Assembly: GCF_030684315.1 (NCBI RefSeq)
Contig: NC_081375.1
Location: forward strand, 11,170,252 to 11,234,251
Direction: 5' to 3'
Origin: Stegostoma tigrinum
Lineage: Eukaryota
Length of the DNA stretch: 64,000 bases
The notes beneath the pieces were generated by a model. The model was not told the DNA's origin and searched no databases. It saw only the letters and a list, made by a program, of their open reading frames with translations. A program made the translations under genes and the position numbers. Below, piece by piece: positions 1-63,600 of the stretch. Every line of letters starts with the position of its first letter. Positions within the stretch are counted from its first letter, which is position 1.

Positions 1-456
1 TATCTAGCCACCATTGATTGTTCCAGCTCAAAGAAAGCAGAACAATAGGCAGGGTGAGGCTCAGGCCTCAGGGGCTATAGCCTCAGGATAAGGGGTCAGT
101 CATTTAAGGTTGCAATAAGGAGAAATCTCTTCACTCAGAAGGTGTCAATCTCCCACCTCAAAGGGGGATGGTTGCTAAGTGTGTGAGTGTGTCCAAAACT
201 GAAATTGATAGAATTCTGTACATGAAGGAAATCAAGGGATAACAGAATAAGACAGAGAAGTAGAAGTGATATAACGAAATGATGGCGCAGGCTCAATCAG
301 CCTTAGACTTACCTCTGCTTCATTATATTTTCTTTAGAATGCAAGGGGACCTACCTGATGTTCCGTCCAGTATAGATTTATTACACCCAGTGTAATTATG
401 ATGTGGGTATAATGCCCAGGTGCTCCCCCCTCAGGATCAAGACAGCCAAATGGAAG

Positions 457-690
457 GAGATAACACAGCGTGGAGCTGGAGGAACGTACCAGGCCAGGCA
501 GCATCAGAGGAGCAGGAAGGTTGATACTTCAGGTCGGGACCATTCTTCAGAAGGGTCTTCTTTTCTGAAGAAGGGTCCTGACCCGAAACACCAGCTTTCC
601 TGTTCCTCTGATGCTGCCTGGCCTGCTGCGTTCCTCCAGCTCCACGCTGTGCTATCTCTGTCTTTAGCATCTGCAGTTCTTACTGTCTCT
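457..690. repeat. Fold-back palindrome of two PLE tails with opposed HHR motifs
   Basis: 457-553 is the imperfect reverse complement of 562-658. Confidence 0.88.
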
Positions 691-6889: not shown

Positions 6890-7693
6890 CAACCTTCGGG
6901 TGGCATCATTGTGGCAGTGCAGGAGGCCCATGATGGACATGTCAGGCTTCCTCTTCATTGGGGAAACCAAGCGGAGGCTTGGGGACCGCTTTGCAGAACA
7001 CCTCCGCTCAGTTCGCAACAAACAACTGCACCTCCCAGTCGCAAACCATTTCCACTTCCCCTCCCATTCTCTTGATGACATGTCCATCATGGGCCTCCTG
7101 CACTGCCACAATGATGCCACCCGAAGGTTGCAGGAACAGCAACTCATATTCCGCCTGGGAACCCTGCAGCCTAATGGTATCAATGTGGACTTCACCAGTT
7201 TCAAAATCTCCCCTTCCCCTACTGCATCCCTAAACCAGCCCAGTTCATCCCCTCCCCCCACTGCACCACACAACCAGCCCAGCTCTTCCCCCCCACCCAC
7301 TGCATCCCAAAACCAGTCCAACCTGTCTCTGCCTCCCTAACCGGTTCTTCCTCTCACCCATCCCTTCCTCCCACCCCAAGCCGCACCCCCAGCTACCTAC
7401 TAACCTCATCCCACCTCCTTGACCTGTCCGTCTTCCCTGGACTGACCTATCCCCTCCCTACCTCCCCACCTACACTCTCTCCACCTATCTTCTTTACTCT
7501 CCATCTTCGGTCCGCCTCCCCCTCTCTCCCTATTTATTCCAGTTCCCTCCCCCCATCCCCCTCTCTGATGAAGGGTCTAGGCCCGAAACGTCAGCTTTTG
7601 TGCTCCTGAGATGCTGCTTGGCCTGCTGTGTTCATCCAGCCTCACATTTTATTATCTTGGAATCTCCAGCATCTGCAGTTCCCATTATCTCTT
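6890..7693 (+). mobile_element. 5'-truncated Neptune-type Penelope-like element (GIY-YIG C-terminus, C-rich 3' UTR, HHR tail) with 55-bp inverted 5' piece
   Basis: Translates FIGETKRRLGDRFAEH...EQQLIFRLGTLQPNGIN; CpGs retained (young); HHR at 7565. Confidence 0.9.
7565..7592 (+). ncRNA. Minimal type I hammerhead ribozyme core
   Basis: CTGATGA-AGGGT-CTAG-GCCC-GAAAC-GTC: both catalytic boxes, helix II and palindromic ACGT helix III, in a PLE tail. Confidence 0.8.
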
Positions 7694-11474: not shown

Positions 11475-12835
11475 GCCCTAGAGTCTTTTAGCACAGAAAC
11501 AGGCCATTCAGCCTATCATGGTTATACTGGTCATCATGCACCTATCTAATCCAGTCCCATTTTCCACCACTTGGCACATAGTTTTGTATGCAGTGAAGAT
11601 CCATGAGATCTTCTAAATATTTCTTAAATGTTGTGATTGTTCCTGTCTCTATCACCCTTTCAGGAAGTAAGTTCTAGATACTCACCACCCTCTGAGTGAA
11701 CAATGTTTTTCTTAAGTCCCCTCTAAGCATGTTTACTTTACCTTAAATCTAATGTAACCATAATTACTGATCACTCTACAGTGGGGAAAAGTTTCTTCCT
11801 ATTTACCCTATCTATGTTCTTCATAATTTTGTACACCTCAATCAGGTACCCATCAGCCTTCTCTGCTGGAAGGAAAACAGACCCAACATATCTTCATTGC
11901 TGAATCACTCCAGTCCAGGCAACATCCTGTTCACCTGCACATCTGCCAATGTGGTATACTGTATCCATTGTACCCGGTGTGGCTTCCTCTACATTGGGGA
12001 AACCAAGCGGAAACTTGGGGACCGCTTTGCAGAACACCTGCGCTCGGTTCGCAACAAACAACTGCACCTCCTAGTCGCAAACCATTTCCACTCCCCCTGC
12101 CATTCCTCAGACGACATGTCCATCATGGGCCTCCTGCAGTGCCACAATGATGCCACCCAAAGGTTGCAGGAACAGCAACTCATACTCCACTTGGGAACCC
12201 TGCAGCCCAACGGTCTCAATGTGGACTTCAAGATTACAAAGTGTGGAGCTGGAAGAGCACAGCAGGCCAAGCAGCATCTCAGGAGCACAAAAGCTGACGT
12301 TTTGGGCCTAGACCCTTCATCAGAGAGGATGATGAAGGGTCTAGGCCCGAAATGTCAGCTTTTGTGCTCCTGAGATGCTGCTTGGCCTGCTATGTTCATC
12401 CAACTTCACACTTTGTTATCCTGGTGAATGTCCTCTGCACCTTGTCCTGTGTAGTCACATCCTTCCTGTAGTGTGGTGACCACATCCACACACGGTACCC
12501 CAGCTACGGCCTAACTAATGCCATATGCAGCTCCTTTGTAACCCCACAGCTCTTGCACTCAACGCCTCACTTAATAAAGGCTATAGTCTATATTCCTTCT
12601 TCACCACCTTATCCGCCTGTCACATTGCCCTCAAGAATTTATGGGCATGCACACCAAGGTCCCTCTGATCCTCTGTGCTTCCCAGAGTCCTGCCATGCAT
12701 TGTGTATTCCTTTGTCTTGTTCATCTCCCTAAATGAAGCACCTCACATTTTTCGGGACTAAATTCCATTTGCCCTTGATCATCCGATCAGTTTGTCTGTA
12801 TGAAGCTTTCCTCCTCACTATTAACCTTATCACTA
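11475..12835 (-). mobile_element. CR1-clade LINE fragment interrupted by a PLE
   Basis: CCAGGCAACATCCTG continues as GTGAATGTCCTCTGCACC across the insertion. Confidence 0.7.
11930..12420 (+). mobile_element. Rearranged Neptune-type PLE fragment (GIY-YIG part plus palindromic tail) inserted in a CR1 fragment
   Basis: NVVYCIHCTRCGFLYIGET motif; ATCCTG on both sides (11924-11929 and 12418-12423). Confidence 0.88.
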
Positions 12836-15142
12836 ACGTTTATGGAAAAATCGAGAGTTCTGAGGAAGACTCTCTTGACCTGAAACGTTAACCCCGGTTT
12901 CTCTTCACACATGCTGCCTGACCTGCTGGGCTTTTCCAGCAATTTCTATTTTTGTTACCAATACCGGTGTCAGCTATGAATTTGCTGTTCAAACCTCCTA
13001 CATTCATAGCTGGACAATTTAGGAATATATAAACAGAACTAGAGCAGGATGAGTGTTCAGAAATGCCAATATACGACCAAATGACCAAAACTGGGCTGAA
13101 CAATGGCTTTCTACGTTGTAGCCTCTTTGAAATTCCATGTAGTATATTTTTCTCAACCCAGACATCTCCGCCTCCCTTTAAGGAATAGGGATCGTCACGA
13201 TTGACCAGCTCTTTGCTCTTTCATTTGCTTAAAATCTCTCTATAGTTTTCCTTTGCACTGCAAGGCTGCCACCAACTGAGCTTACAGTTGACGCCGAGGG
13301 ATGCAGCGGTGGAAAAGATGTGAGCCTGTTCAAACGTTGAAGTGCTGCAAATTTTTCCGCAACATCGCTCCCTCCAAAGGTATGGGTTTCAAAGACGCTT
13401 CCAGTTTCGCTTGCTTTACTATTCCAGTCGAATTGCATTTAATCTGAGGGCTGCGAGATGGCGTCTGCTCAAAACTGCAATAAAACTGCCCACGCACAGG
13501 TCACAAGTACTGTCTCTGACAGATAACAGCGAAGCGTGGGGCATCAGGGGCAACGAAACAGCACAAAGAACATTTCATTACCAGTAACCAGAATGTTTTC
13601 AATACCAGCATTCACTATACTGCTTTCACCTCCAGTGAGGAAGGGAACCATTTCCACTCCAGAATTGAAGAAGGGTCTCTGGACGCCAAAATGTTAACTC
13701 TGCCTTCTCCCCACAGAGCTGCAGAGTTTCTTCAGTAATTTTTGTTTTTTTTTAGTGCCGGCACTCTTAATGTTCTATCTTAATGTTATTTCGAATAATA
13801 AATTGACCGTCGGAATACTGTTTTATTTAGAAATCATGAAACGGACGGGGCAAACTGAGATAAAAAGAGTGCCGGAGAAACTCAGCAGCTCTGGCAACAT
13901 CTGCGGAGAAAGAAAACAGTAGTTAACGTTTCCAATCTGAAGGGTCCTGACCCGACATCAACTTCCCTGCTCCTCTGACGCTGCCTGGCCTGCTGTGCGG
14001 TCTCCAGTCTGATATGACCTTTCTGTTTCAGAATCCTCTCTGTTCCATTCATGGTGAACTCCAAACATTTCCTGTCTCCACAGACTTGCTGAGCTTTCGC
14101 AACATTTTCTGTTGTTATTTGGGGTCCCCAGCATCCGTAGTATTTCATTTTGTTTAATGAGCACAGAGAGACAGAATGAAAAAAAAAATGCTGAAAATAC
14201 AAGACTGTCTCAGAAGGTATGGGAATTAGGTGAAGGGATGGAATAGTCCACGCTGAAGTGATCTTCGTGGAAATGTCCCGTGTTAAATACTGATCGTTAT
14301 TTCTGAATGCGCCGTCAATAGTAGCCCAGGCAGTACTACCGCTGCTTCGGAGCGCCACTGTCTGATTAAGGGACGTTTTAGGTGAGACATGTGCTCATCA
14401 CTCTCAGTAAAGTTAATTCTACGAAAGCGGATAAACGACCGACAAGCCTCCGTCTGTTTCAAATCTTGAGGTGACCCAAGCATGTACTACCCGTTTGTTT
14501 TTCTTTTATTGTTTGTACTGTCGATTGGTTCCCTCCAGATGATTTTACTTAAATTCGACTTAAAGGGGGATACCGAGCTATGCCCGATGCCTTTCAAGAA
14601 ATGCAGGAAAACATTTTGCAAACTGAAAAAAATAGAATGAACCTTCTGTAATGTCTCATGATTTCAGCGCAAAATTCACGGGGCCAACGAAAAAATTAAG
14701 TGAACGGTGAGTGCCTGGTTGGCGCACAGATCGCAGGCGGTTCGCGTTGTGCATCAGCAACAAACAGTGAGCTGGATACGTGCAGTCCGCTAACTGCTCC
14801 AGTGCAGGACTCTAATCTGTTGCTCGTTCTAATGTAAGCAAACCGAGTTGACATAAATAAACAAACCCTAAATAATACGCGCACGTGTGTATGCGGGAGA
14901 GAGAGAGACACTTACACCCGGGTGCCCAAATTTCATGATTCATAATGTGAATTTGCACTTTACAGAGGAGGAAAACTCCGATTTCCAATTTTCTTTACCT
15001 TCAGGGATGCAAGATCTTAGCCCCGTCTGGGCGCTTTGCAAAACTGCCTCCCAATAAATACGAAATGGCTGAGCAGGACTGAGAGTTATTACTACAATTC
15101 TTCTTTTCGTAAAACAGAAAACAAAAACAAATCGTCGCTTAC

Positions 15143-23839: not shown

Positions 23840-24344
23840 ATGGCTGCGCGTGACGTCAGCACACGTCACCGCCGCGGGGGTTCCGTCTCATGCTCAGTTT
23901 CTCTGAATGGGCAGAGCCCGGCCCCGTTGTTTGTTCCTTCCCGCCTTGCCCGCTGATTGGGCGCATCCTAAGTGGGAGTCGTTGATGACGACTGCTATTG
24001 TGACCGGCCGTGGCGGGCAGCGCGTGCGCAGTGTGTGGACGGGCCGTCGTCACTCCCCATCCCGCCCTCTCTGTCCTTAAAGCCGCCATTAACCGTGTCA
24101 GTGAGGTGCGGCGCCGCGGTCAAAGCTGCGATAGATCGTTATACCAATTTACATTATATATATATAAAAAAACACACTCTTTAATCAAGGTGTTTTTTTG
24201 TTGATGAATCTGGAAAATTAGCTTGTTTTTCGTTTCCCCTGTCGGATACTCGAAAGCCAAGCCCTCCGTCGTGAAGAGGCGGTTTTGTTGTGTGGGGCGG
24301 GAGAAAGGGATTAAAGGGTTTTTTTCCTTTCTCCGAGAGCAAAA
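23840..24344 (+). promoter_or_regulatory. ALYREF CpG-island promoter and 5' UTR
   Basis: Full CRE TGACGTCA (23851-23858), inverted CCAAT (about 23956), NRF1-like GCGCGTGCGCA (24020-24030), YY1-like GCCGCCATT (about 24082), TATA-like run (about 24156-24170). Confidence 0.75.
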
Positions 24345-24635
24345 ATGGGCGACAAACTCGACATGTCCCTGGACGACATCATCAAACTCAACCGGCAGAA
24401 AAGCCCAGGCGGCCGCGGGGGCCGAGGTGCCCGCGGCGGCGGCGGAGGAGGTGGTGGTGGTGGTGGAGGAGGAGGCGGTATGGGCCGGGGAGCCGGCCGA
24501 GGCGGCCTAGCCGGTCGTGGAGCAGCGGGAGGCCGCGGTGGCGGTGGAGCTGGGGCGGGAGCCCTGGCTGTAGGCCTCATGCGCAACAGACAGAGTGCAA
24601 TCCGAGGAAGAAACAGACCGGCTCCGTACAGCAGG
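24345..24635 (+). CDS. ALYREF: ALYREF/THOC4 exon 1 (N-terminal UBM MGDKLDMSLDDIIKLNR and RGG region)
   Basis: Conserved REF-N motif, RGG-rich stretch, ends RNRPAPYSR|gtagg; 291 nt, phase 0. Confidence 0.97.
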
Positions 24636-26157
24636 GTAGGAAGCGACCGCGGTTTTAACACACAAAAAAAACAGAAATGATAGGGGAAAAAAATGTTTCA
24701 TTTAAATCCAGAGAGAGAGGAAGGAAAAACAAATCATTTGTAGATTTTTATTTTGTTTTTTTTCTGGAAGTGCTTTTTTTAATATAAAACGTTCGGTTTG
24801 AATTTTGAACCGAGCGGCGCCATATTGGAGCCGTTATAGATTCGGTTTTTTTTCATTACTTTTTTAAAACAAAAATCTTTTAGCCCGCTAACTTTTTAAA
24901 ACAAACCCCGGGCCCCGCTGGCCACGAGTTATTTTTTTTCGTGAAAACGTCGGAGAATCGAGGAAGAAGGGATTGTTACACGGCGCCTCGTGATTTCTAC
25001 GGAGGAGGCTGACAAGCGGAAATTCGTGTTTTCGTTGCTAATAATTTGCTTTTAAACGTCCGTCCAAGTCTGTTGAGAGCTCGGAAATGTGATGGCGGCT
25101 CCCGAGCAGAGCCTGCGGTCGACACCGGAGCCGAATTCACCAGGAGCTTTAAAATGGCGGCCCGACCCGAAGCACAAAGATGTCGGGGAGGAGCGTGGGG
25201 ATCAGCAATCCTGCCGCAGTAATAATGCCCTCGCTCCCTTTGTGCTTCACACCGACGGATTTACAAAGGATGGACTGTTTGTAAGGACCACCTTTTGCCA
25301 CTTTACCACATCAAAAGTTCGATTGATTATTTGCACCGCATTTCTCGACGGCAGCTTCGCATCTCTGGTCACCTTTAACAGACTCCTGAATTGATCAGGA
25401 CTATTTCAAACTGCCTCTTTTTCTTTGGACTTTAATGAAACGTTCATACAAAAGTGAACCTTCTGCGAGCATATCCTTCGCTCGGTTGGTTACCTGGCAA
25501 GTCATGGACTTTTTTTTTGAAGGACTCTTGATCAGTTCTATTAAAAGGAACTTAGCTGATGCAAAGCGTTCCTTTGTTATGGACTCCTGCGCTGCCAAGA
25601 ATTTTGGACAGTGGAATGCATCTCGCTTGGAAGAGATGGAGGCGTTGCAGCTGTTTCTGCTGGAGAAGCTACCACCAGCTGAGGAGAATTTCACCAAAGT
25701 ATCTGGCTAGTGGCTATTAGAAGGAATCCAGGCTTTAGTTCGAGATGATGTGCTGTGGAAACAGTGGTAGGATAATAAGTGAATTCATTTCTCACCAAGT
25801 AAACAGTTGCATCTGATTTTCTATGCTTAATTTTCATCTATCATTGTGTGTACAGGACCACTTTATATGTTGCTAGCTTAGTGAACTGAGTACAAACATT
25901 TTAATTAGATACTAAATTATATTCAGTACATACGCACATGTCATTTTGTTAAATAGTTAACCCATTTCAGGTAAGGTCAGTGTATTTGTAATGAAACTCC
26001 CATGACAATCGCTGAAGCAAGTGACTCAGTCTTGCCTATAATATATTGTAAATATAGGGGGAGGGGAAAGATAGATAGGGTGGACATGTGAAATTAACCA
26101 ATGTATTGGGGTACAAAATGTAGGAAGTCAGCGAGGTATATCTCTATTTTCTTATAG

Positions 26158-29902: not shown

Positions 29903-30088
29903 GTGAGTTGCCCCCTTGGTCAGTTTTTACATTTGTTAAATTTTGAATTCAAAGATGTAACTCTTACGTGGGGTTATCTTAAGATTGTAAGGAAAACACT
30001 GAGGTAGCACTGTCAAGTCGGCTCATTGAAGTGACGATTTTACCATGCTTGTCTTGTAACCACTTGTTTTTCCTTTCCAATATTGTAG

Positions 30089-30248
30089 TGGAAACAGAGG
30101 TTTAAATCGATCTCGCGGTGCTTTTGGGAGTGGAAACAGGCGATCCAGAGGCAGCAACAGGGGTGGGAGAGGTCGTGGGGGAAGGAATCCAAGGCAGCAG
30201 CTTTCAGCAGAAGAACTGGATGCCCAATTGGATGCTTATAATGCCAGG
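30089..30248 (+). CDS. ALYREF: ALYREF exon 5 (second RGG region and C-terminal [19 protein letters not shown])
   Basis: ttgtag acceptor and gtaaga donor; 160 nt; REF-C motif. Confidence 0.97.
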
Positions 30249-31453
30249 GTAAGACAGGTAGTAGGTTTGTCTCAATTGTTGAAGCAGCCTTTGACTCTTA
30301 ATACTTCATTCCATCCTAGATTAATACCAATCTATTGGAGTGATCTAAATCTGTCGCCAAGAGTCCTTCCTGTATTATGTTTATGCAGTCTATCTTCCTG
30401 TTTCTTAAATCTGACTGCTGTTATGCTGACCGATTGGAGTTTGAGCTGAACCATACAGCCTGAGGCTCCTGGAGTTTAATTGCATGCTTCTCGCTCAGTA
30501 GTAAAAGTGCTACTGTTGGCTGTGTACAAGTGGAGTAGAAATTATCACTCTTCAGAAGAAATTGAAGATGACTTTGAGAGGATAGTAAGATTGAAGTTGG
30601 GCTAATAGTTCTGGGAACAAATCTATTGAGGTCAGGGGACCTTGGTGGGAAGGGCTTCACTAATTGCATTTGAGATTGCAAAATTTTTGACTTGAAAGTG
30701 GCAGTGATGAGACTTTGTTCAAAAGGCCGTGAATTGGCTTTGATAAGTTATATGTTGGATACTTTAATTTCTTGTGTGCTATTACTTGAATTTTGAAGCT
30801 GGCTGAAAGAACTTAGAAAACAGCTGGAGCAGGGTGGGAGAATATTTTAATTTGGTATTAAAGGGCAAACTGAGCATTCCAGATGGAAGATGGCTTGTTT
30901 CTGAAGTAGGCCTTTACTGGTGAAGCTGACTTGTAGGATTGGTGAAAGAAATAAGTAGCAGTGTGAAGCTTTTGGAGGTGGAAGTGCATCTTGGGAGTCA
31001 GATAAGGCATTTAAAGTTGGGAGACAACCAGTCATGTGTCTCCAGATAGGTTTCATGTTGAAAGCCTGTGGGTAGAATTGGTTTCCTTGTGGTGAATGTA
31101 AGTAGGGTGAGGAAGGGTACCTGAATTGATTTGGCCTGTGGAAATGAAAAGTCACATTAGAAGTTGTATACTGATCTGGTAAGGTATCAAAGTCAACGGG
31201 TTTACTTTTTGTTTAAGCAGTTCTAACACCAGTGGGAACAGTCAAATGCATTTGATCACCAGTTGAGATGAACTGATCTGTCGTGGGGTGGCAGGAGTGT
31301 GACTTCGTTGTACCGTGTGCTGTCTTGTGGAGATGAGTCGTGTGAATTTTCTGAATGTTCTGCCTATATTTCAGTAAAACAGTCAAAGCTCTTTTTTAAT
31401 GTTTGTTAAAAATATTGGTGTGCTGAACATCTTAATTGTTTTATTTCTTGCAG

Positions 31454-34600: not shown

Positions 34601-37600
34601 TTTGAATTTGACTTCTGAACGTGAAATGTTTTGCAAACCTTTTCAACATGGTTAAAAATAGAAGCAAGCAATATCTGACCTAGTCAAAGTACTGGGCTTG
34701 TACAAGTACTAAGTGCCTAGTCAAGCAAATGTGCTTTAATTGGGAGGAAAGCCATAACATTACTTTTTAAAGTTGGCTTAATCATTGGTCAACGGTTTTC
34801 ATTACGTCACTAGAGATTTTTGCATCTAAGGCTTTCACATAAGTTTAAGTATTTTCTAACTTAATAACAATTATACCATGTTACACAATTCTACAGATCT
34901 GTTGATGCTCCAGACAAAATGTTCATTTGTTTGTTTCTTGCTGTACAACAGAGTAGGAGACACTTATTCCAATTTTCCCTCTTGCTGCTTAGCTCAGGTT
35001 CCAGAATGAACCCCCAGTGCTGTCAATTGCTAAATATTTAATAAAAGAATTGTCACTTCAGCAATTTGGCACAAATCAAATTTGCAAAGGCACCAAACAA
35101 TTTTATCAATCAATGCATAAACTGTCAATCCTTCCTCTGGTCATTTCATTCTGTAATCACCCTGTATGATTTTTAAGAAGCAATACATAATTTATTTCCA
35201 TCTGAGTAAATGGTGAACCCAAACATGTTTGTTTGTGCACTATATTCCAGTGCTATATAGGTCTTTTGAAATCTGGAAGGATAATTTCTGCTTGCATCCT
35301 GTTGGTGAGCTAGATTTTTGAAACAGGATTGTCTGCTGAACTGATGTAATTTGGCTGTCTTTTGAGCTTTGTGATTTTAAGAAATGTTCCCTGCAAGCCT
35401 TGTAGGTTTGTACTTTGCCAGTTTGATGGCATGATGTTTTAGAAAAGTGTTCTTTGTTTCTTTCCATTATGGTAATAAAAGCTGTTTCAACTACCAACAA
35501 TCTGCTTTGAAGAGCTGGCACCTCTTCCAGAAGATATTGATATTGATGGAACTTTTTAAATTACATTTATTTGTAATTCATTACAAATAGTCTATTCTTG
35601 GGTACTTTCCCCTTTTTTTCATGCAACTGAGTGCATGCATGCACCTTTAAAATAGCATGCTATATCAAAGTGGTTTTATAATGGAACCTTTTGATATCAT
35701 TGAAGCCCCTTTTTATTATAATAGCAGTTCTATGAACAAAGTGTTTTTTTTTTGAAGGGTAGATGTACAAGTTACTTGTCCATGATTAGTCAAAATCAAA
35801 GTGTTTTTGTGTAATAATACCGTGGTTGCTTGCTGCTACAGTTTCTGCAGAGACCAAAGATGGTGAAATTTCCAGGGATGGCTGGAAGGATTATTTACAA
35901 ATTTAAATGTTTTTTGTCTGTGAAATTCTTGAAATGGGAATTACCTTTCTACTCCAAATATTAATTGGACTGCGTAAGGAGCATTGAGGAAACCATTCAG
36001 CCTATCAAATCTACTTTGCCATTGAATTAGATTTTTAAAATTTATCAGCCTCAGTTATTATCCTGTTATCACATATCTATCCATTTTGTTTTTTTAGTAT
36101 CAACTATTGTCTAACTCGGAGTTCCCTCAGCTGTCTCTATCAAATGGCCTCTTGCTTGTTCTGAGACTCTTTGTCTAAACTAAGCATTCAGGGGAACCAT
36201 CCTGTCTTAATTACATTGTCCCACCCTATAAGAATTTTGAAGATTTACGTTTTAATTAGGTCTTTCCTCAAAGCTCAATTCAAGTCTAGTTTCTTAATTT
36301 TCAATACAAAACTCACCATCTCAGGAATTAAATAGTGAACTGATGTAGTACTAGCTCTATAGCAAATCTATTCTTTCAACCAAAACTCTGCCATAGACTA
36401 TAAGATGAGACAAAGGAGTAGATGTAGACTGTTGAGCTCATAGTCTGCTCTGTTGTTCAGTAAAATGACTGATCTGAGCGTTCTCAATTCAGCTATCCTG
36501 CCTTTTCCTTAACACTTCATTTACTTAACTGACTTTAAAAATTAGCCCATCTCCACTTTCAACATATTCAATTACCCAACCTCAACAGCCCTATGCAGTG
36601 AATAATTTCCATAGTTTCGCAACCTTTGAGGAAGTTCTTTTGTGTGCAAACCTTTTGACGAGATTATGCCCTTGGGTCCTAGAGTCTCTCATTATGAGAA
36701 ACAAACTCTTCTACATTTTTTTGTGGCCCAGTCCTTTGAAAATCTTGTTTCAAAATGGTTGCCTCTTATTCTTCTATGTTTCAGCTAATATAGTCCCAGT
36801 TCACGATTAGTGCCTTTATATAGATTTAGCAAAGTTTCCCACTTTTTATAGAAAAACTAAACTGTAGGTGCTGTAAATCGGGAACAAAAACAAGTTGCTA
36901 GAAAAGCTCAGCAGGTCTAGCAGCATCTGTGAAGGAGAAAATAATCAGTTACTATTTTGAGTCCAGTGAAATGTCCTCAAGTGAGTTGCGTTTCACTGGA
37001 CTCTAAACATTTAACTGGGTGGGTTTTTCCCCCCTCTCTTCACAGATGCAGTCAGACCCGCCAAGCTTTTCCAGCAACTTGTTTTCTTCCCATCTTTTTA
37101 TACTTGCATTCCCTTCAAAAATGCCTAATATTTGCCTATCACCTGCTGAATTTAGATGCTAACTTTGAGAGCTTACAAATCCTCCTGGTGTTTTCTGCAT
37201 TTAAATCCATCTCCCCTCTTCCTGCCAAATTGCATAGCCTCACTTTCTCCATATTATATTCCATCTCCTACAATTTTATCCTTAACCTCATTCATAAAAT
37301 GATTTGGATAATGCACAAGACTCCCATGTGCAATCTCAAGCCCAGTGAGACATCTTTGCTCCAGTAATCAATTATGTTGAAAGCCAATATGTTGAGCTTT
37401 CATAATTGCTGCACCTGCTTACTAGTTTTGTAGCTCAAAAGCACCTAGATCATTTGGACATCACCAGTTCCCAACCTCTTACTGGAAGAAATGCTGTTGT
37501 CTTCTCACTTGATGTATACTTGCCCAGTAATCTGGCATATCCAAGCCTTGCATTTTTTTTTTTTGCACAACTTGCATTCACCTCTAGGCCCTCACCAAAT

Positions 37601-41682: not shown

Positions 41683-41945
41683 TAAGTGTGGAGCTGGAAG
41701 AGCACAGCAGGTCAGGCAGCATCAGAGGAGCAGTAAAGTTGGATTTTTGGGTTGGGACCCTTCTTCAGAAACGGGAGAGGAGGGAAGGAAGCTCAGAAAT
41801 AGAGCTCCCTTCCCCCTCCTCCATTCCTGAAGGGTCCCAGTCCGAAATGTCAGCTTTCCTGCTCCTCTGCTGCCTGGCCTTCTGTGTTCCTCCCAGTTCA
41901 ACGCTGTGTTATCTGACTCCAGCATCGGCAGTTCTTACTATCTCA
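41683..41945. repeat. Fold-back palindrome of two PLE tails with opposed decayed HHR motifs
   Basis: Inverted arms around about 41800; flanked by TTGATACAGAA (41664) and TTGATATAGAA (41947). Confidence 0.85.
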
Positions 41946-49294: not shown

Positions 49295-50350
49295 GTGATA
49301 ATGGGAACTGCAGATGCTGGAGAATCCAAGATAACAAAGTGTGGAGCTGGATGAACCCAGCAGGCCAAGCAGCATCTCGGGAGCACAAAAGCTGACGTTT
49401 CGGGCCTAGACCCTTCATCAGAGAGGGGGATGGGGAGAGGGAACTGGAATAAATAGGGAGAGGGGGGAAGGCGGACCGAAGATGGAGAGAAAACAAGATA
49501 GGTAGAGAGGAGAGTATAGGTGAGGAGGTAGGGAGGGGATAGGTCAGTCCAGGGAAGATGGACAGGTCAAGGAGGCAGGATGAGGTGGTAGGTAGGAAAT
49601 GGAGGTGTGGCTTGACGTGAGAGGAAGAACAGGTTAGGGAAGTGGAGACAGGCTGGGCTGGTTGTGTGATGCAGTGGTGGGAGGGAAAGAACTGGGCTGC
49701 TTTGTGATGCAGTGGGGGGAGGGGAGATTTTGAAGCTTGTGAAGTCCACATTGATACCATTAGGCTGCAGGGTTCCCAAGCGGAATAGGAGTTGCTGTTC
49801 TTGCAACCTTCGGGTGGCATCATTGTGGCACTGCAGGAGGTCCATGATGGACGTGTTGTCTGAGGAATGGGAGGGGGAGTTGAAATGGTTCACGACTGGG
49901 AGGCGCAGTTGTTTGTTGCGAACCGAGCGTTGGTGTTCTCCAAAGCGGTCCCCAAGCCTCCGCTTGGTTTCCCCAATGCAGAGGAAGCCACACCGGGTAC
50001 AATGGATACAATATACCACTTCGGCAGATGTGCAGGTGAACATCTGCTTGATATGGAAGGTCATCTTGGGGCCTGGGATAGGGGTGAGAGAGGTGGTGTG
50101 GGGGCAAGTGTAGCACTTCCTGCGGTTGCGGGGGAAGGTGCCAGCTGTGGTGGGGTTGGAGGGGAGTGTGGAGTGGACAAGGGAGTCGCAGAGAGAGTGG
50201 TCTCTCCGGAAGGCAGACAAGGGTGGGGATGGAAAAATAGCTTGGGTGGATTGTAGATGGCGGAAGTGTCGGAGGATGATGCGTTGTATCGAGAGATTGG
50301 TGGGGTGCTACGTGAGAACGAGGGGGATCCTCTGGGGGTGGTTGTGGCGG
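49295..50350 (-). mobile_element. Neptune-type PLE 3' portion (left arm of an inverted pair)
   Basis: ORF 49567..50220 with Cys-rich linker (KCYTCPH) and GIY-YIG domain; intact HHR at 49394-49421. Confidence 0.92.
49394..49421 (-). ncRNA. Minimal type I hammerhead ribozyme core
   Basis: Reverse complement is identical to the 7565 core. Confidence 0.8.
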
Positions 50351-50351
50351 G

Positions 50352-51430
50352 GAGTCACGGAGAGAGTGGTCTGTCCGGAAAGCAGAGAGGGGTGGGGATG
50401 GAAAAATGTCTTGGGTGGTGGGGTCGGATTGTAGATGGCGGAAGTGTCAGAGGATGATGCGTTGTATCCAGAGGTTGGTGGGGTGGTGTGTGAGAACACT
50501 GTCTGCTTTCCGGAGAGACCACTCTCTCCGTGACTCCCTTGTTCGCTCCACACTGCCCTCCAACCCCACCACACCCGGCACCTTCCCCTGCAACTGCAGA
50601 AAATGCTACACTTACCCCCACACCTCCTCCCTCACCCCTATCCCAGGCCCCAAGATGACATTCCACATTAAGCAGAGGTTCACCTGCGCATCTGCCAATG
50701 TGGTATACTGCATCCACTGTACCCGGTGTGGCTTCCTCTACATTGGGGAAACCAAGCGGAGGCTTGGAGACCGCTTTGCAGAACACCTCCGCTCAGTTCG
50801 CAACAAACAACTGCACCTGCCAGTCGCAAACCATTTCCACCCCCCCTCCCATTCTTTAGATGACATGTCCATCATGGGCCACAATGATGCCACCCGAAGG
50901 TTGCAGGAACAGCAACTCATATTCCGCCTGGGAACCCTGCAGCCTAATGGTATCAATGTGGACTTCACCAGTTTCAAAATCTTCCCTTCCCCGACTGCAT
51001 CCCTAAACCAGCCCAGTTCGTCCCCTCCCCCCACTGCACCACACAACCAGCCCAGCTCTTCCCCTCCACCCACTGCATCCTAAAACCAGTCCAACCTGTC
51101 TCTGCCTCCCTAACCTGTTCTTCCTCTCACCCATCCCTTCCTCCCATCCCAAGCCGCACCCCCATCTACCTACTAACCTCATCCCACCTCCTTGACCTGT
51201 CCGTCTTCCCTGGACTGACCTATCCCCTCCCTACCTCTCCACCTATACTCTCTCCACCTATCTTCTTTTCTCTCCATCTTTGGTCCGCCTCCCCCTCTCA
51301 CCCTATTTATCCCAGAACCCTCACCCCATCCCCCTCTCTGATGAAGGGTCTAGGCCCTAAACGTCAGCTTTTGTGCTCCTGAGATGCTGCTTGGCCTGCT
51401 GTATTCATCCAGCCTCACATTTTATTACCT
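50352..51430 (+). mobile_element. Neptune-type PLE 3' portion with inverted 5' piece (right arm)
   Basis: ORF 50406..51083 with CNCRKC linker and VVY-YIG endonuclease; 50352-50498 is antisense; HHR at 51338 has GAAA changed to TAAA. Confidence 0.92.
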
Positions 51431-54059: not shown

Positions 54060-54580
54060 TTGAGAAGATGTGTAGCTCGGGTTGTGGATGAGGTTGTAGA
54101 CATGCTCACTGAGCCCGTGGGTTTGATTACAGACGTTTTGTCACCCCGCTGGGTCACATGGTCAGTGCGTCTCTGGTGAAGCGTCGGTGTTCTGTCCTGC
54201 TTGTTATTTACATGCCTCTCATTGCTGGGGTGGTTGGTATTACTTCCAGTTCTGTTTTTCACTGGTTTGTCTTGTCACGACCAATTCTCACTGGCCTCAA
54301 TACTCATGGACAAAGAAGGGCACAAATTGAACACATCCATAATAGCACAAACCAAACAGAAACACACCAGGGAATTCCTGGAGGCCTGGCATTCCAACTG
54401 GAACTCCGTCAACAAACACATTGGACTGGACCCCATATCCAAACCACCCCAGCAAACCGAGGCACATAAATAACAAGTGGGACAGAACACCGACGCTTCA
54501 CTGGAGACACTCTGACCTAGCAGGGGGACTAAGCATCAATCGGCAATGGCGAGCAAGTCTACAACCGCAAACCCCAAATT
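54060..54580. mobile_element. Penelope/Poseidon-type PLE tail, fold-back arrangement
   Basis: 54060-54265 is antisense to about 54440-54580; plus strand encodes HTREFLEAWHSNWNSVNKH; same family as 42255-43690 and 44550-44645. Confidence 0.82.
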
Positions 54581-58300: not shown

Positions 58301-59559
58301 TAAGATGTGTTTTCATGACAATTGATAATGAATTGTCACCATTCATAGCTATCTTTTTAATTCCAGATATTTTTTCTATTGAATTCAATTTCACCATTTG
58401 CCATGATGGGATTTGAACCCCAGAACAATGTTCCAGGTTTTTGTTCCTTTATTCATTCATGGGATGAGGACCAGGGCAGCATTTATTGCCCATCCCTAAT
58501 TGCCCAGAAGGCAATTAAGAGTCAACCACATTGCTGTGGATCTGGAGTCACAAGTAGGCCAAATCAGGTAAGGATGGCAGTTTTCTTCCCTGACAATTAA
58601 CAATGATCAGACTCTGTAATTCCAGGTAGTTACTGAATTCAAATTCCACCATCTGCTGTGGCGGGATTTGAACCCAGGTCCCTGGAATGTTATCTGGGTC
58701 TCTGGAATAACAGTCCTGCAAATAATACTACTAGACCATCAGCTGGTCCTGGATTATGAGTCATTGTGAAGGAACAAAGCATCAATCCAAAGAGTAGGTG
58801 TTAATAAAGCTCAGCTCTGACTGAAAGCAAACCGAAGTCTCTGGTCTGGCTCCTGGCAGTACTAAAGAGGAAGATCATCCTAGTATCACTTATCAGAATG
58901 TACTTCTTTGGGTTAAAGTGATCAAAGGATATGAGGAGGAAATGGGAAGACTGTAGGGTTGTATGAGCAGCCGTGATGATATTAAATGGGGGAGCAGGCC
59001 AGAAAGCCTGAATGGCCTTCTCTTGTTCCTTTTTATTAAACATTACCCTCACACCTTAAACACTTCACCTGACAAAGGGGCAAAACCCTGAAAGCTTATG
59101 ATTTCAAATAAACCCATCGGACCGTAACCTGGTGTCATCTGATTTCTGACCTCATCCACACCAGTCCAATACCGGCACCTCCACATCACGACCCTTTTTT
59201 CTAAATTCATTGGGCGAGGACCTCACAGGGTCATCCAGCATTTATCAGCCATCACTAATTGCCCAGCTGGCAGTTAAGAGTCCACCACATTGCTGGGGGT
59301 CTGGAGTCACATGGAGGCTAGAATGTCAACTTCCTTACCTAAGGGAGGGGTAGTCATGAATCAGATGAGCTTCCCCAACCCCACCCCAGCCATGGTCTCT
59401 CAGTTGAATTCAAATACCAACATCTGCCTTGTCTGGATTTGAAAGCTGGCCCAGACCAGAAGCAGGGTCTCTGGGTGAACAGTCCAGTGATGATACACCA
59501 GGCCATTGCCTCCCTTTCTGTGAACAGTTGGTCCTTGAGTGGTCCAGGAGAGTCCGGCC

Positions 59560-59900
59560 GTGGGGGATGGAGGGAGGGAGGGAGGGAGGCGGCGCCGGAA
59601 GTGACGCGGGGCGGGCCCACCCGCTCGGTGCTGGGCGAAGAGATTCAGTCAGAGAGGAGCGCCCGCCCTCGGCAGACTACCGGAGAGGAGACAGGAACAG
59701 GGCCCGCTTGTGCTGGTCAGTATCGCCGAGCACGGTGCGGGCTGTGTGATCCCGGGGGAGTCCGCTCCCGATCCGTAACGGCTGCCGCCGCCCCTTCCCG
59801 GGGATTGGCGGGGGCGGGGGGAGGGTCGCATTTCCTCCCGCACTTTACGGCGGGAGCGCGCGGGGCGCTTCGCACCCCCCCCCCACGACCCTTGAGGCGG
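59560..59900 (+). promoter_or_regulatory. CpG-island promoter and non-coding first exon of a downstream plus-strand gene (possibly ARHGDIA by synteny)
   Basis: Overlapping ETS-CRE motif CCGGAAGTGACG (59595-59606) followed by a GC box; donor CTG|gtcagt at 59715/59716; no coding exon in the window. The gene identity is inference from human gene order only. Confidence 0.7.
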
Positions 59901-60446
59901 GAGCGCGCTACGCATTTCGTTTCCCTTCGTAGTAACGGGAGCGCGCAGGGGTTTCGCCCCCTCCTTTGCAGCGGAAGCGCGCGCAGGGGGTTTCGTTTCC
60001 CTTCCTAGTAACGGGAGCGCGCAGGGGGTTCGTTTCCCTTCCTAGTAACGGGAGCGCGCAGGGGGTTTCGTTTCCCTTCCTAGTAACGGGAGCGCGCAGG
60101 GGGTTCGTTTCCCTTCCTAGTAACGGGAGCGCGCAGGGGGGTTCGTTTCCCTTCCTAGTAACGGGAGCGCGCAGGGGGTTTCGTTTCCCTTCCTAGTAAC
60201 GGGAGCGCGCAGGGGGTTTCGTTTCCCTTCCTAGTAACGGGAGCGCGCAGGGGTTTCGTCCCCTCCCTTGTAGCGGGAGCGCGCGAGGGCTTTCGTTTCC
60301 CTTCCCGGTAGTGTGAGCGCGCAGGGGGTTTCGCCCGCCCCCTCTCCCTTGCAGCGGGAGCGCGCGAGGGGTTTCGCCCCCTCTCTTCTCGCGGCGGGAG
60401 CGCGCAGGGGGTTTCGTTTCTTTCCCTCCCTTGCATCGGGAGCGCG
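59899..60446. repeat. GC-rich minisatellite, 37-38 bp unit, about 14.5 copies
   Basis: Unit GGGAGCGCGCAGGGGGTT(T)CGTTTCCCTTCCTAGTAAC; near-perfect copies start at 60013, 60050, 60088, 60125, 60163 and 60201, with degenerate copies on both flanks. Confidence 0.97.
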
Positions 60447-60642: not shown

Positions 60643-63600
60643 TGTGCCTTTATTTAAAAACTACAATGTGTGATTAATCAGAACAGTTAATAATCAGAAA
60701 CTGTACCATTCCACTGGGTGCTGCAGTTTAGTGAAGCACCAGATTTAATGAGCAGGTCCTAAGCATCCACCAGGCAGTTTAGAATAAATTGCATTTCATT
60801 TTTTTCCCCTCCTCTGGCAGCCTGTACAGAGAGAAACCTCGTGTGCTCCTGATAACCCAGTTTCCTGCCCCCTCCCCCTTCTCTTACCCTTTTTTATGGT
60901 TAGGGCGGTGTCCTCGCGCCCGTTCCGTGTCTGTACAGCGTGAACAGTAGACAGGAAACGTTGCTTTTAAAATCGGAAATTCGCTGCCCGTCTCTAATTC
61001 CATCTTCCATTCTTGTCAGTCGGAGCTCGCAAGTTGCCTTTGCATAAGCTTCATCGGTGGATCAGTGCGACAGGGCATAAAAAGGTGTCTTTGTACGTTA
61101 TATAAATGCTGTACGTTACGCTGTGTGTCACAAGCAGTTAGTACTTTCTCCTGTTTTTAGCTGGAGGGAAGTAGGCTGCAGCATGCCCTGCTAGCCGGCC
61201 ATATTGTTCGTTCATATTCTTCGCCAGAATGATTTGCAAACAAAACTGGGTTATAATTTTAAGACTGGTGTAACTGACACCAAGATAATTTATAATCAGA
61301 GGGAGTTTGTGGGCAAGTGAGAGGGCCGTTGTTTGTGCCCGTGGCTGTCTGCGAAAAAAACTCACTCCATCCCACTTATCTGCCATCTGTTTCTCTTCCT
61401 CACAATTTGCAGAAAACACCACACTGCTAGTCAGACAATCCTAACACAATGTGTTGAGTCCCTTCTTTCAGACCATAATTTATCTTTCTTCTTGCAGTCA
61501 TTTTTTTTTTGGTGGCACTGAGGAAGTTCAAGTTAACTTGCCCTCTGGTATCTATTGCCAGAGAGAACGCATTCAGGCCATCTTTTCTGTTCAGCTGGCT
61601 TTGTCAAAGCATTAAATCAATCCTTGTTGTAAAAATGAAGGACCGCATAATCTTCAAATATTTTCCAGTTTGGCTCTCTGTAGTTGCTGTGAACTTAACA
61701 TCAACTGCTTCCTTTGGTGAAGTGTGCCACGGTCTGCCAATTCTAAAATTTGTCTTAATGTCTCATGTTTTTCTGGAGCAGTGTTTATTGATCCTTTGTC
61801 GGAACCTTCAACTTGAAAAAATAATCTTCTATACAAGCAGTTCTTGTCTGCCTTGCTGCAATAGCAGCACTAACAAAGTGACAGGGAGGAGGAAGATAAT
61901 GTTATGTTTGTGGCAAACTTGTCATGTGTTGCATAAGTAAGGTTTGCTATTTGCAATTTGATATTTCAGCCTTGAGAAACAGTGGAACTCATTGATAAAC
62001 TTGAGGTTAATATTTTATCATTTTAACTAATAAATTTAAATGATAACTTCTGTCACTCATCAAAAATTGGATGGCTGTAACAAGGGGACAGTGGTGATTT
62101 AACCTGGTGGTGCTAGAAATGTGGCGGTTCTAAAAGCATTTGAACTCAACTTGCGGTTTGGGGAGACCGTGCAGTATTACAATGAATGGTTTTTGAAACA
62201 AATGTAGCAAGCCAGGTCTTTGCTAACCATTTAAAGAATGTTTGTTTAGACTATTGATACTCTTTAAATTTAATGTTTCCTTTCCTGATTGAAATGTACA
62301 AACTTTACTCTGCCCTTCCTCTAATTAAAAACATACTAAATTAGGGCTTTAACCAAGAAGAAATGCCTGCCTGCCCCTCACCAGTAGTCATGCACTGTTT
62401 TAAATATGCTGTTAGAATGATTTGTCATAATGGCCCACTTTTTTTTAATGAAACACTAGAGGAAGTAGATTCTTATTAGGTAACTATTTGACTTCATTTA
62501 TCAATTCAGTTGCTGGTATGTAATTTTAATTTATTTCTATTCTGCGGTATTGTTGACAGATTCTTTCCATTTAACAAGCCAGGGAGATAAGCCTCTTGTA
62601 GCTATTTGTAGGTTTCAATTTGCTCCCAGTGGAGAAATATTCAGTATCTGCCCTACTTTCTGTTTTCAATTTGCATTGTTAAGATTTGAATTGTTTGAAT
62701 AATTGCTATTTGAGGTATATTTTAGAAAGTTAAGGATTAATCTAACCACAGTATGTAAAATGTATCCCTCAAATGTGTTTTTCACCTAAATATTTGGGCC
62801 AAATTTTATTCATACCAAAACTTGGCTTTGTACATGGCTTAATCATCTTTCCTGGGTATAGACTTGTGAATTAGGTGGTGGTGTAGGGCATTTGGTCCTT
62901 TTTGTTGCTGTGCTACTTTTGTAAGACATTTAAGCGGCCTCAGTTTCATTTTCTTACTTATCACCAATACTGTTTGACTTTGGAAATTAATTCTGGAATA
63001 GCCTCACTGTCAATAAATTACCAGCACAACAATCCAATGCCTAAAAACTACAGTGATATGAAAAAATAACTTGGGCTCATGGTGACATACACCAAAAACA
63101 ATTAGGGCCTCTTCAAGAAGAAAGGGAAAGACTATCATTAGTCATTAAACTCAACTCCATATTATCATAGAAAGCAGTGTGTGGAGCTGGATGAACACAG
63201 CAGGTCAAGCAGCATCTTAAGAGCACAACTGGTTGGCCTGCTGTGTTCATTCAGCTCCACGCTTTATCTCGGATTCTCCAGCGTTTGCAGTTTCCATTAT
63301 CTCTCTCCATATTATCATACTTCAATGAATTTCAGGCTAGACATGATGTTGAACTCTCCTTTCATTGCTTCCATCTCTGTGCTCATTTCTTTAGACAAGA
63401 GCCCTCTGTGTCTCATCGATCCCTTCACCTGTCTCCATGCTCTTCCACCTGGACTCCCTCCTCTGGTCTTTTTCCTGCATGCAACCTTTTCATTGAGAAC
63501 TGTTGATGTGACATTAACTTAATTTTTCTGCCCCACTCGCCCTATCTCACTCTGAACTGACTACACTGTGTGCTGTCAGATCCAATCCTAACTGAGGTAC

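What the first reader, a model, noticed from the sequence alone, without database searches (positions are those of the whole stretch)
457..690. Palindromic twin-hammerhead unit (one HHR per strand)
Seen: two PLE tails of about 95 bp joined head-to-head, with the centre of symmetry immediately 5' of the two CTGAAGA boxes. The same architecture recurs at 12233-12420, 41683-41945 and, more decayed, at 13858-14010, 36860-37085 and 63175-63305. Inference: a recurring MITE-like fold-back product of PLE retrotransposition, or a non-autonomous family. Transcription of either strand gives a long hairpin containing a sense ribozyme masked by its antisense, an ambisense layout reminiscent of viroid-like RNAs.
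Basis: partly seen in the sequence, partly recalled or inferred. Interest (0 to 1): 0.7.

Follow-up and report, generated by a model that had tools for sequence, protein, structure and literature searches.

The report
Mirror-image stump of a Penelope retrotransposon
This mirror-image DNA is one of very many stumps of a known type of jumping gene (Penelope-like), likely built afresh at each landing when both cut ends of the chromosome copied the front of the element's RNA; its two ribozyme motifs are mutated here, so it is likely a record of how the element inserts rather than a working viroid-like RNA.

Summary
The palindrome at 457-690 is real, but it is not a MITE family or a viroid-like unit. 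It is one insertion of a Penelope-like retrotransposon (PLE), with Neptune-like motifs. It has two opposed copies of the element's 5' leader, one 31 nt longer (the known PLE 'tail'), inside a 16-bp target-site duplication (TSD). In 1.45 Mb of unselected genome, 82 such pairs occur against 1.8 expected. 74 of 80 classifiable pairs have one short and one long arm, and all 70 centres tested differ. The exact centre of 457-690 occurs once in the genome. Arms pile up just 5' of the hammerhead, about 30 nt behind a TATA-like box, the likely RNA start. Both cores here are mutated; only 8 of 86 pairs keep both intact. 13858-14010 is not a twin, and 63175-63305 has no hammerhead. The architecture is published (inverted pLTR, tail, TSD). 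This scan has noted it repeatedly elsewhere in this genome. The insertion statistics support priming from both target ends. An 878-copy hotspot at the predicted ribozyme cut site is suggestive but has a rival explanation.

The parts
444..459 (+). left copy of a 16-bp target-site duplication; its last 3 nt overlap the end of the short arm
   Evidence: 15 of 16 identical to 692-707
457..552 (-). short arm: PLE 5' leader, subfamily C, positions -2 to +94 (C3 of CUGANGA = +1)
523..550 (-). minimal type I hammerhead motif, core mutated (GAAA read as GAAG, A15.1 lost; a stem II base changed)
551..564 (.). central junction, 14 nt, containing a short re-copied piece of the element; unique in the genome
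562..689 (+). long arm: PLE 5' leader, subfamily C, positions -3 to +125
565..592 (+). minimal type I hammerhead motif, core mutated (U16.1 changed to C)
659..689 (+). 31-nt one-sided 'tail' between the two inferred reverse-transcription start sites
   Evidence: defined in PMC11167929
692..707 (+). right copy of the target-site duplication
12229..12424 (.). head-to-head pair, subfamily A2, short+short, no TSD found, abutting a truncated PLE ORF end
13870..13997 (.). not a twin unit: subfamily D arm beside a subfamily C arm, no TSD
36860..37085 (.). subfamily D pair, 68-nt gap, neither core complete, 9-bp possible TSD below threshold
41685..41944 (.). subfamily C pair, short+long, arms reach -32 and -26, both cores mutated, 11-bp possible TSD below threshold
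49297..51430 (.). long member of the same series: opposed arms carrying the GIY-YIG end of the ORF, long tail left, short tail right
63179..63303 (.). subfamily A2 pair, short+long, starts at +34 and +50 (no hammerhead), perfect 15-bp TSD

Best explanation
457-690 is a single, decayed insertion of an endonuclease-bearing Penelope-like retrotransposon, likely made when both 3' ends of one staggered cut primed reverse transcription on the front of the element's RNA and the two cDNAs were then joined near the RNA's likely 5' end. Steps: (1) the GIY-YIG nuclease makes a staggered cut (TSD shown; enzyme inferred). (2) One end primes at about +125 and the other at about +94 of the leader (two end classes and their near-fixed pairing shown; priming inferred, matching two start sites measured in vitro for the anole element PAc). 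(3) Each cDNA stops independently, most often 1-7 nt 5' of CUGANGA (shown); this is the likely transcription start, about 30 nt behind a TATA-like box (inferred). (4) The two ends are joined by microhomology, slippage and short re-copies, so each centre differs (unique centres shown; route inferred). The hammerhead lies at the very start of the RNA, so the two motifs face each other whenever both cDNAs reach it uncut. The unit is likely dead on arrival: it lacks the upstream TATA-like box and then decays.
For: 82 head-to-head pairs vs null 1.8, tail-to-tail 3, in 145 unselected 10-kb stretches. 79 of 86 same subfamily; TSD in 50 of 86 vs 0 of 86 swapped-flank controls, mode 15 bp. 74 of 80 classifiable pairs short+long vs 49% expected from solo arms, p=8e-17. 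Short arm further 5' in 35, long arm in 17, equal in 18 of 70; 5' ends uncorrelated (rho 0.16, p 0.20, n=63); 70 of 70 centres distinct; 82 non-consensus variants shared between arms vs 27.9 expected. Exact centre once in 3.2 Gb. 5' ends of 393 arms: 14 at -60..-8, 100 at -7..-1, 48 at +1..+7, 113 at +8..+50. TATA-like box starting at -33 to -36 in all five subfamily profiles; initiator-like A at -4 in B, C and D. L248 shows leader, then a 1094-codon frame, then the leader again. RVT_1 E 6.6e-6 and GIY-YIG E 8.5e-4, both below Pfam's curated cut-off. 13 of 30 long copies also have an opposed leader within 1.5 kb upstream. Literature: PAc nicks and extends both strands and starts at two sites that define the tail (PMC11167929).
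Against: No RNA data, so the start site is inferred from DNA ends and motifs only. Subfamilies A1/A2 have the same wall but no A at -4. D. virilis Penelope has a TATA-less internal promoter (PMC2377424). 36 of 86 pairs show no TSD at my threshold. A hybrid route is not excluded, in which both ends are RNA-primed but the inside of the shorter arm is filled by snap-back of the longer cDNA; shared variants fit it equally well. In PAc in vitro, top and bottom strands did not differ in start site, which does not predict the near-fixed short+long pairing seen here. Core positions differ less between arms (14 of 271) than nearby non-core positions (71 of 563), which pure neutral decay does not predict; sublineage CpG sites are my likely but untested explanation.
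Confidence: 0.8

Rival explanations
1. Self-priming fold-back: one cDNA (or an antisense RNA) snaps back and copies itself, giving the second arm, as proposed for Adineta Penelope elements.
For: PMC3846280 reads palindromic junctions this way. Arms share source variants (82 vs 27.9). Zero-loop palindromes exist at self-complementary 4-mers. Centres hold short re-copied pieces.
Against: A self-copy cannot hold sequence that the first strand lacks. The short-tail arm extends further 5' in 35 of 70 pairs, the long-tail arm in 17, and the 31-nt tail is on one arm only. Several long arms are little more than the tail (starts at +79 to +90). So both ends must meet RNA; snap-back can at most fill part of one arm.
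Confidence: 0.12
2. An amplifying non-autonomous, MITE-like palindromic family that moves as a unit.
For: Some simple centres recur: 4 of the first 50 of 1265 start-centred palindromes have the same zero-loop centre, and 878 loci share a zero-loop centre at +29.
Against: The exact centre of 457-690 occurs once; 28 of 29 best matches have different centres; 70 of 70 sampled pairs differ. 26 fetched +29 palindromes fall into A1, A2 and B backgrounds, so they arose repeatedly. Ends are unequal by about 31 nt and TSDs vary from 9 to 22 bp, unlike a DNA-transposon MITE.
Confidence: 0.04
3. A functional ambisense ribozyme RNA (viroid-like or retrozyme-like) in which each hammerhead is masked by its antisense.
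For: The hairpin is very stable. Core positions are more conserved than other positions against consensus (45 of 1467 vs 697 of 9666) and between arms.
Against: Both cores are mutated at 457-690 and 41685-41944; both are intact in only 8 of 86 pairs and absent from both arms in 31. The essential G12 (+21, in a CpG) is changed in 20% of copies, like other CpG sites. Conservation against consensus is expected from selection on the source elements. Retrozymes are tandem, not inverted.
Confidence: 0.03
4. Chance neighbours, or nested insertions of unrelated copies.
For: True for 13858-14010 (D arm beside C arm, no TSD) and probably for a few of the 7 of 86 mixed pairs.
Against: 82 vs 1.8 expected and a strong head-to-head bias; one TSD spans the pair.
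Confidence: 0.01

Closest known systems
EN+ Penelope-like insertions with an inverted 5'-truncated pLTR, one-sided 30-40 bp tail and TSD (Adineta Pen2a/Pen2, PMC3846280; overview PMC8557442; D. virilis Penelope, PMC2377424)
   Same: Head-to-head inverted copy, tail on one side only, one TSD round the whole unit, palindromic junction, TATA-like and Inr-like motifs in the repeat (Adineta).
   Different: Here most units are reduced to the leader alone (about 100-250 bp) and extrapolate to about 180,000 per genome; centres pile up at one spot.
PAc (Poseidon of Anolis carolinensis), in vitro mechanism, PMC11167929
   Same: Two internal reverse-transcription start sites that define the tail; both target strands nicked and extended; uncleaved RNA is the main template.
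   Different: PAc is Poseidon clade and its ORF starts inside the hammerhead. Here the linker has a CX4CX2C motif (Neptune/Nematis-type) and the first ATG of L248's frame lies behind the tail. PAc showed no strand difference in start site, whereas pairs here are nearly always short+long.
Minimal hammerheads of metazoan PLEs, PMC4209133
   Same: Minimal type I core with a palindromic 15.2-16.2 pair and short helix I; that paper already noted dual motifs 100-700 bp apart on opposite strands in Schistosoma.
   Different: It did not analyse those pairs as single insertions; here the motifs are often under 30 bp apart.
L1 twin priming (recalled, no call)
   Same: Both target ends prime on the element's RNA, giving an inversion inside one TSD.
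   Different: In L1 the two parts do not overlap; here both arms copy the same stretch, from two fixed start sites.
Non-LTR retrozymes (bioRxiv 10.64898/2026.07.22.740005) and MITEs
   Same: Short, non-coding, hammerhead-bearing and PLE-derived (retrozymes); small inverted-repeat unit with a TSD (MITEs).
   Different: Retrozymes are tandem repeats that amplify as units; MITEs have equal ends, a fixed TSD length and a shared interior. Neither holds here.

Membership tests
EN+ Penelope-like element | parent ORF with RT and C-terminal GIY-YIG, contiguous with the repeat | tested here: met
   L248 leader-ORF-leader; RVT_1 E 6.6e-6; GIY-YIG E 8.5e-4 and 1.3e-3, all below Pfam's cut-offs; YIDD and two Cys between GIY and YIG visible in L133
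EN+ Penelope-like element | optional 30-40 bp tail on one end | tested here: met
   3' ends bimodal at about +92-95 and +125-127; 74 of 80 pairs mixed
EN+ Penelope-like element | inverted 5'-truncated copy and TSD round the unit | tested here: met
   50 of 86 vs 0 of 86; 16 bp at 457-690
EN+ Penelope-like element | hammerhead motif in the pLTR | tested here: met
   core in all five subfamily profiles; activity not tested
Neptune clade | CX2-5CxxC motif in the RT-EN linker (shared with Nematis; absent in Penelope/Poseidon) | tested here: met
   CX4CX2C upstream of the GIY-YIG core in L133; definition from PMC8557442 passages
Neptune clade | placement by RT phylogeny | not tested
   no reference PLE proteins were fetched; clade call rests on the motif only
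MITE (DNA transposon derivative) | copies share interior and junction | tested here: not met
MITE (DNA transposon derivative) | symmetric termini and fixed short TSD | tested here: not met
   ends differ by about 31 nt; TSD 9-22 bp
Non-LTR retrozyme | tandem units, each with a complete hammerhead | tested here: not met
   1 tandem pair vs 82 head-to-head within 30 bp; both cores intact in 8 of 86
Viroid-like ambisense ribozyme RNA | a competent ribozyme in each polarity | tested here: not met
   both cores mutated at 457-690
Viroid-like ambisense ribozyme RNA | circular RNA replicating as RNA | not testable with these tools

The most novel reading that the evidence does not exclude
The roughly 180,000 stumps are a genome-scale record of the PLE insertion reaction. 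An asymmetric two-site complex primes both target ends, one always at the far start site and one at the near. The cDNA ends mark two RNA 5' ends: the transcription start 4 nt before the hammerhead, and the ribozyme's own cut site. 878 zero-loop palindromes sit at the cut site, against 154, 80, 26 and 6 at four control 4-mers. That would be evidence that minimal PLE hammerheads cleave in the germ line, which RNA-seq of the anole element failed to show.
Probability: 0.35. Interest if true: 0.62.

Novelty: new member of a known kind. Interest (0 to 1): 0.36.

Why it matters
As an object the locus is ordinary repeat debris. As a class it bears on an open point: the papers read here call the origin of PLE inverted and tail structures unresolved, and one proposes self-priming on an antisense template. 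The counts here favour priming from both target ends with fixed short/long roles. They also give exact predictions (RNA start at about -4, two start sites, a possible cut product at +29) that an in vitro system like PAc, or 5'-end RNA sequencing, can test directly. They warn that repeat pipelines may misfile such stumps as MITEs or microRNA-like hairpins; Rfam gave only sub-threshold miRNA matches.

Tried and rejected
Rfam scan of the window: no hammerhead family hit; 7 weak miRNA-type matches on three of the hairpins and 1 tmRNA match, all below gathering scores. RNA expression: no RNA holder listed; this says nothing either way. Laying contigs X1-X4 on 150-1000: contigs of X4 cross both outer junctions without differences, but that run may be the source sample, and contigs show no RNA ends. 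Cut-site pile-up in the unselected sample: none; 3 arms at offset 0 against about 2.6 per position. Start-at-+29 vs start-at-+31 pattern counts (3776 vs 629): rejected as a clean test because AGC/AGCT microhomology inflates +29. Subfamily C, AAC variant, which has no self-complementary 4-mer at the cut site: 0 of 6 short-centre palindromes were blunt joins at +29, against a general cut-site hotspot. Cap-derived extra G before -4: none evident; by eye about 6 of about 42 arms in the 50 loci listed, not scripted. A spliced leader 5' of the wall: no shared foreign sequence among the listed upstream 12-mers (by eye). Single arms do not fold better than shuffles (z 0.2-1.1). Full-length 5' ends in the sample: 1 shared pair among 170 long-tail flanks, 76% alike, not followed up. 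Literature searches found the architecture but no paper with these counts. Most subscription papers, Repbase and Dfam are not covered, and no supplements were read.

Full report
What is there. The window lies in a 3.2-Gb genome, G000 contig C26. At 457-690 two arms of 96 nt, 88% complementary, face each other, each with a CTGAAGA box, 14 nt apart. The + arm runs on for 31 nt, and a 16-bp duplication with one mismatch (444-459, 692-707) brackets the unit. The strand folds to one hairpin at z -21. I number positions from C3 of CUGANGA as +1. The - arm spans -2 to +94 and the + arm -3 to +125. Both cores are damaged: the - arm has lost A15.1 and the + arm U16.1. Hammerhead numbering is from my own knowledge and PMC4209133.

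The parent. The arms match the end of GIY-YIG-coding stretches in the window. Natural copies carry RT and GIY-YIG in one frame (Pfam hits are below curated cut-offs). In L248 the arm sequence (+18 to +125) runs directly into a 1094-codon open frame and recurs after it. So the 'tail' is the front of the element's RNA, repeated at the end as a pseudo-LTR. A CX4CX2C linker motif points to the Neptune or Nematis type; I built no tree. Earlier notes call the host a shark; I did not test this.

Unselected sample. I asked for 160 10-kb stretches at round coordinates; 145 existed. They hold 401 arms in five subfamilies, A1 (youngest), A2, B, C and D. 82 head-to-head pairs lie within 30 bp, against a null mean of 1.8 (maximum 6 in 500), with 3 tail-to-tail and 1 tandem. 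That extrapolates to about 180,000 pairs. Of 86 pairs within 100 bp, 79 are same-subfamily. 50 have a TSD at my threshold (9-22 bp, mode 15) against 0 of 86 swapped controls; 36 do not. Leaving out 6 pairs with decayed ends, 74 of 80 combine one short and one long arm, against 49% expected from solo arms. Long copies do the same: 13 of 30 have an opposed leader within 1.5 kb upstream.

Family or one-off. The exact centre of 457-690 occurs once in the genome. The 29 best-matching distinct loci have 28 different centres; they were picked for likeness to the query, which explains why about a third share its re-copied piece. All 70 same-subfamily short+long pairs have different junction coordinates. 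Simple zero-loop centres do recur (4 of the first 50 of 1265; 878 at +29). However, 26 fetched +29 loci fall into A1, A2 and B backgrounds, 20 with their own TSD (one of the 26 matched only 11 nt). This is convergence, not a MITE-like family.

Mechanism. In 70 pairs the short-tail arm reaches further 5' in 35, the long-tail arm in 17, and 18 are level. The two 5' ends are uncorrelated. A strand that copies itself cannot gain sequence it lacks, so both target ends must have met RNA. Arms share 82 non-consensus variants against 27.9 expected in 74 pairs, so they mostly come from one source copy (one RNA, two RNAs of one locus, or later conversion). This fits PMC11167929, where PAc nicks and extends both strands and starts at two sites that bound the tail. 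That paper saw no strand difference in start site, so the near-fixed pairing here is not explained by it. PMC3846280 proposes self-priming instead; partial snap-back inside the shorter arm remains possible.

Why the centre sits before the boxes. Among 393 arms (8 at stretch edges dropped), 5' ends number 14 at -60..-8, 100 at -7..-1, 48 at +1..+7, 113 at +8..+50, 95 further upstream and 23 beyond +50. All five subfamily profiles have a TATA-like box starting at -33 to -36, and B, C and D have an initiator-like A at -4; A1 and A2 do not. TATA and Inr spacing rules are recalled. The wall is therefore the likely RNA start. In D the four bases from -4 pair perfectly with the four after the predicted cut, while in the others helix I has only 2-3 pairs. 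The twin-hammerhead look is the case where both cDNAs reach the start of an uncut RNA.

Is the twin ribozyme a functional unit. Both cores are intact in 8 of 86 pairs, present in both but mutated in at least one in 14, and missing from one or both arms in 64 ('missing' includes cores clipped by the alignment). G12, in a CpG, is changed in 20% of copies. Against this, core positions are better conserved than others, both against consensus and between arms (14 of 271 vs 71 of 563 nearby; pooled A/T sites p=0.017). The first is expected from selection on source elements. The second I attribute to sublineage CpG sites, untested.

The cut-site question, a lead from earlier notes. The unselected sample shows no pile-up at the predicted cut. 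Genome-wide, zero-loop palindromes number 878 at AGCT (+29, the first bases of the predicted cut product) against 154 at CTAG (+13), 80 at ACGT (+24), 26 at GGCC (+56) and 6 at AGCT (+74). The patterns differ in length and subfamily coverage. The hotspot is real but under 1% of pairs. Two results weaken the cleavage reading. 48 of the first 50 listed are A-type, where a predicted 6-bp stem (+1..6 with +25..30) closes exactly there and could stall the enzyme. And the AAC variant of C gave 0 of 6 blunt joins at +29. I leave it at somewhat under even odds.

41683-41945 and 63175-63305 are proper short+long insertions, the second without any hammerhead. 12233-12420 is short+short without TSD, 36860-37085 is a gapped D pair, and 13858-14010 is two unrelated arms.

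What is known, and what I saw of each paper. PMC11167929: parts 1-2 of 4 (abstract, main text, start of methods). PMC4209133: parts 1-2 of 4; it notes opposite-strand dual motifs in Schistosoma. PMC8557442, PMC3846280 and PMC2377424: passages only. bioRxiv 10.64898/2026.07.22.740005: part 1 of 5 and passages. L1 twin priming is recalled. No supplements were read; PAc Fig. S2 could bear on the end statistics. Five searches found the architecture in print but not these counts. The scan has reported this class on other DNA of this genome at least eight times.

Verdict. A real feature and a new member of a known kind. The value lies in the class statistics as a test of the PLE insertion mechanism.

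Noticed in passing
window 24315-24680 and 30060-30449 (+): Exons of a likely ALYREF/THOC4-type RNA export gene: weak FYTT hit (E 0.0046) at the N-terminus and FoP_duplication (E 2.5e-11) at the C-terminus; the gene name is recalled.
   Followed up: partly
   Followed up: yes
window 49297-51430: A 2.1-kb inverted PLE insertion with a duplicated middle piece, suggesting several template jumps; no TSD seen by eye.
   Followed up: partly
window 6890-7689: A young A1 copy with a 55-nt perfectly inverted piece at its 5' junction.
   Followed up: no
subfamily profiles: Both inferred start sites end in a similar short motif within a lineage (TATCT in A-C, a T run in D), a possible recognition signal for the enzyme.
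   Followed up: no
L248:3050-6766 (G000:C1): A near full-length young copy with an uninterrupted 1094-codon frame, including a low-complexity repeat in the N-terminal part.
   Followed up: partly
central junctions: Many centres carry extra T/A runs and short re-copies of the first 8-13 nt of the leader, as if the enzyme slips or re-primes on reaching the RNA's end.
   Followed up: partly
window 54160-54517: An inverted repeat with 81-nt arms, 84% complementary, that did not match the leader profiles.
   Followed up: no
window 59343-60041: GC-rich stretch with open frames on both strands, possibly a CpG-island promoter or first exon.
   Followed up: no
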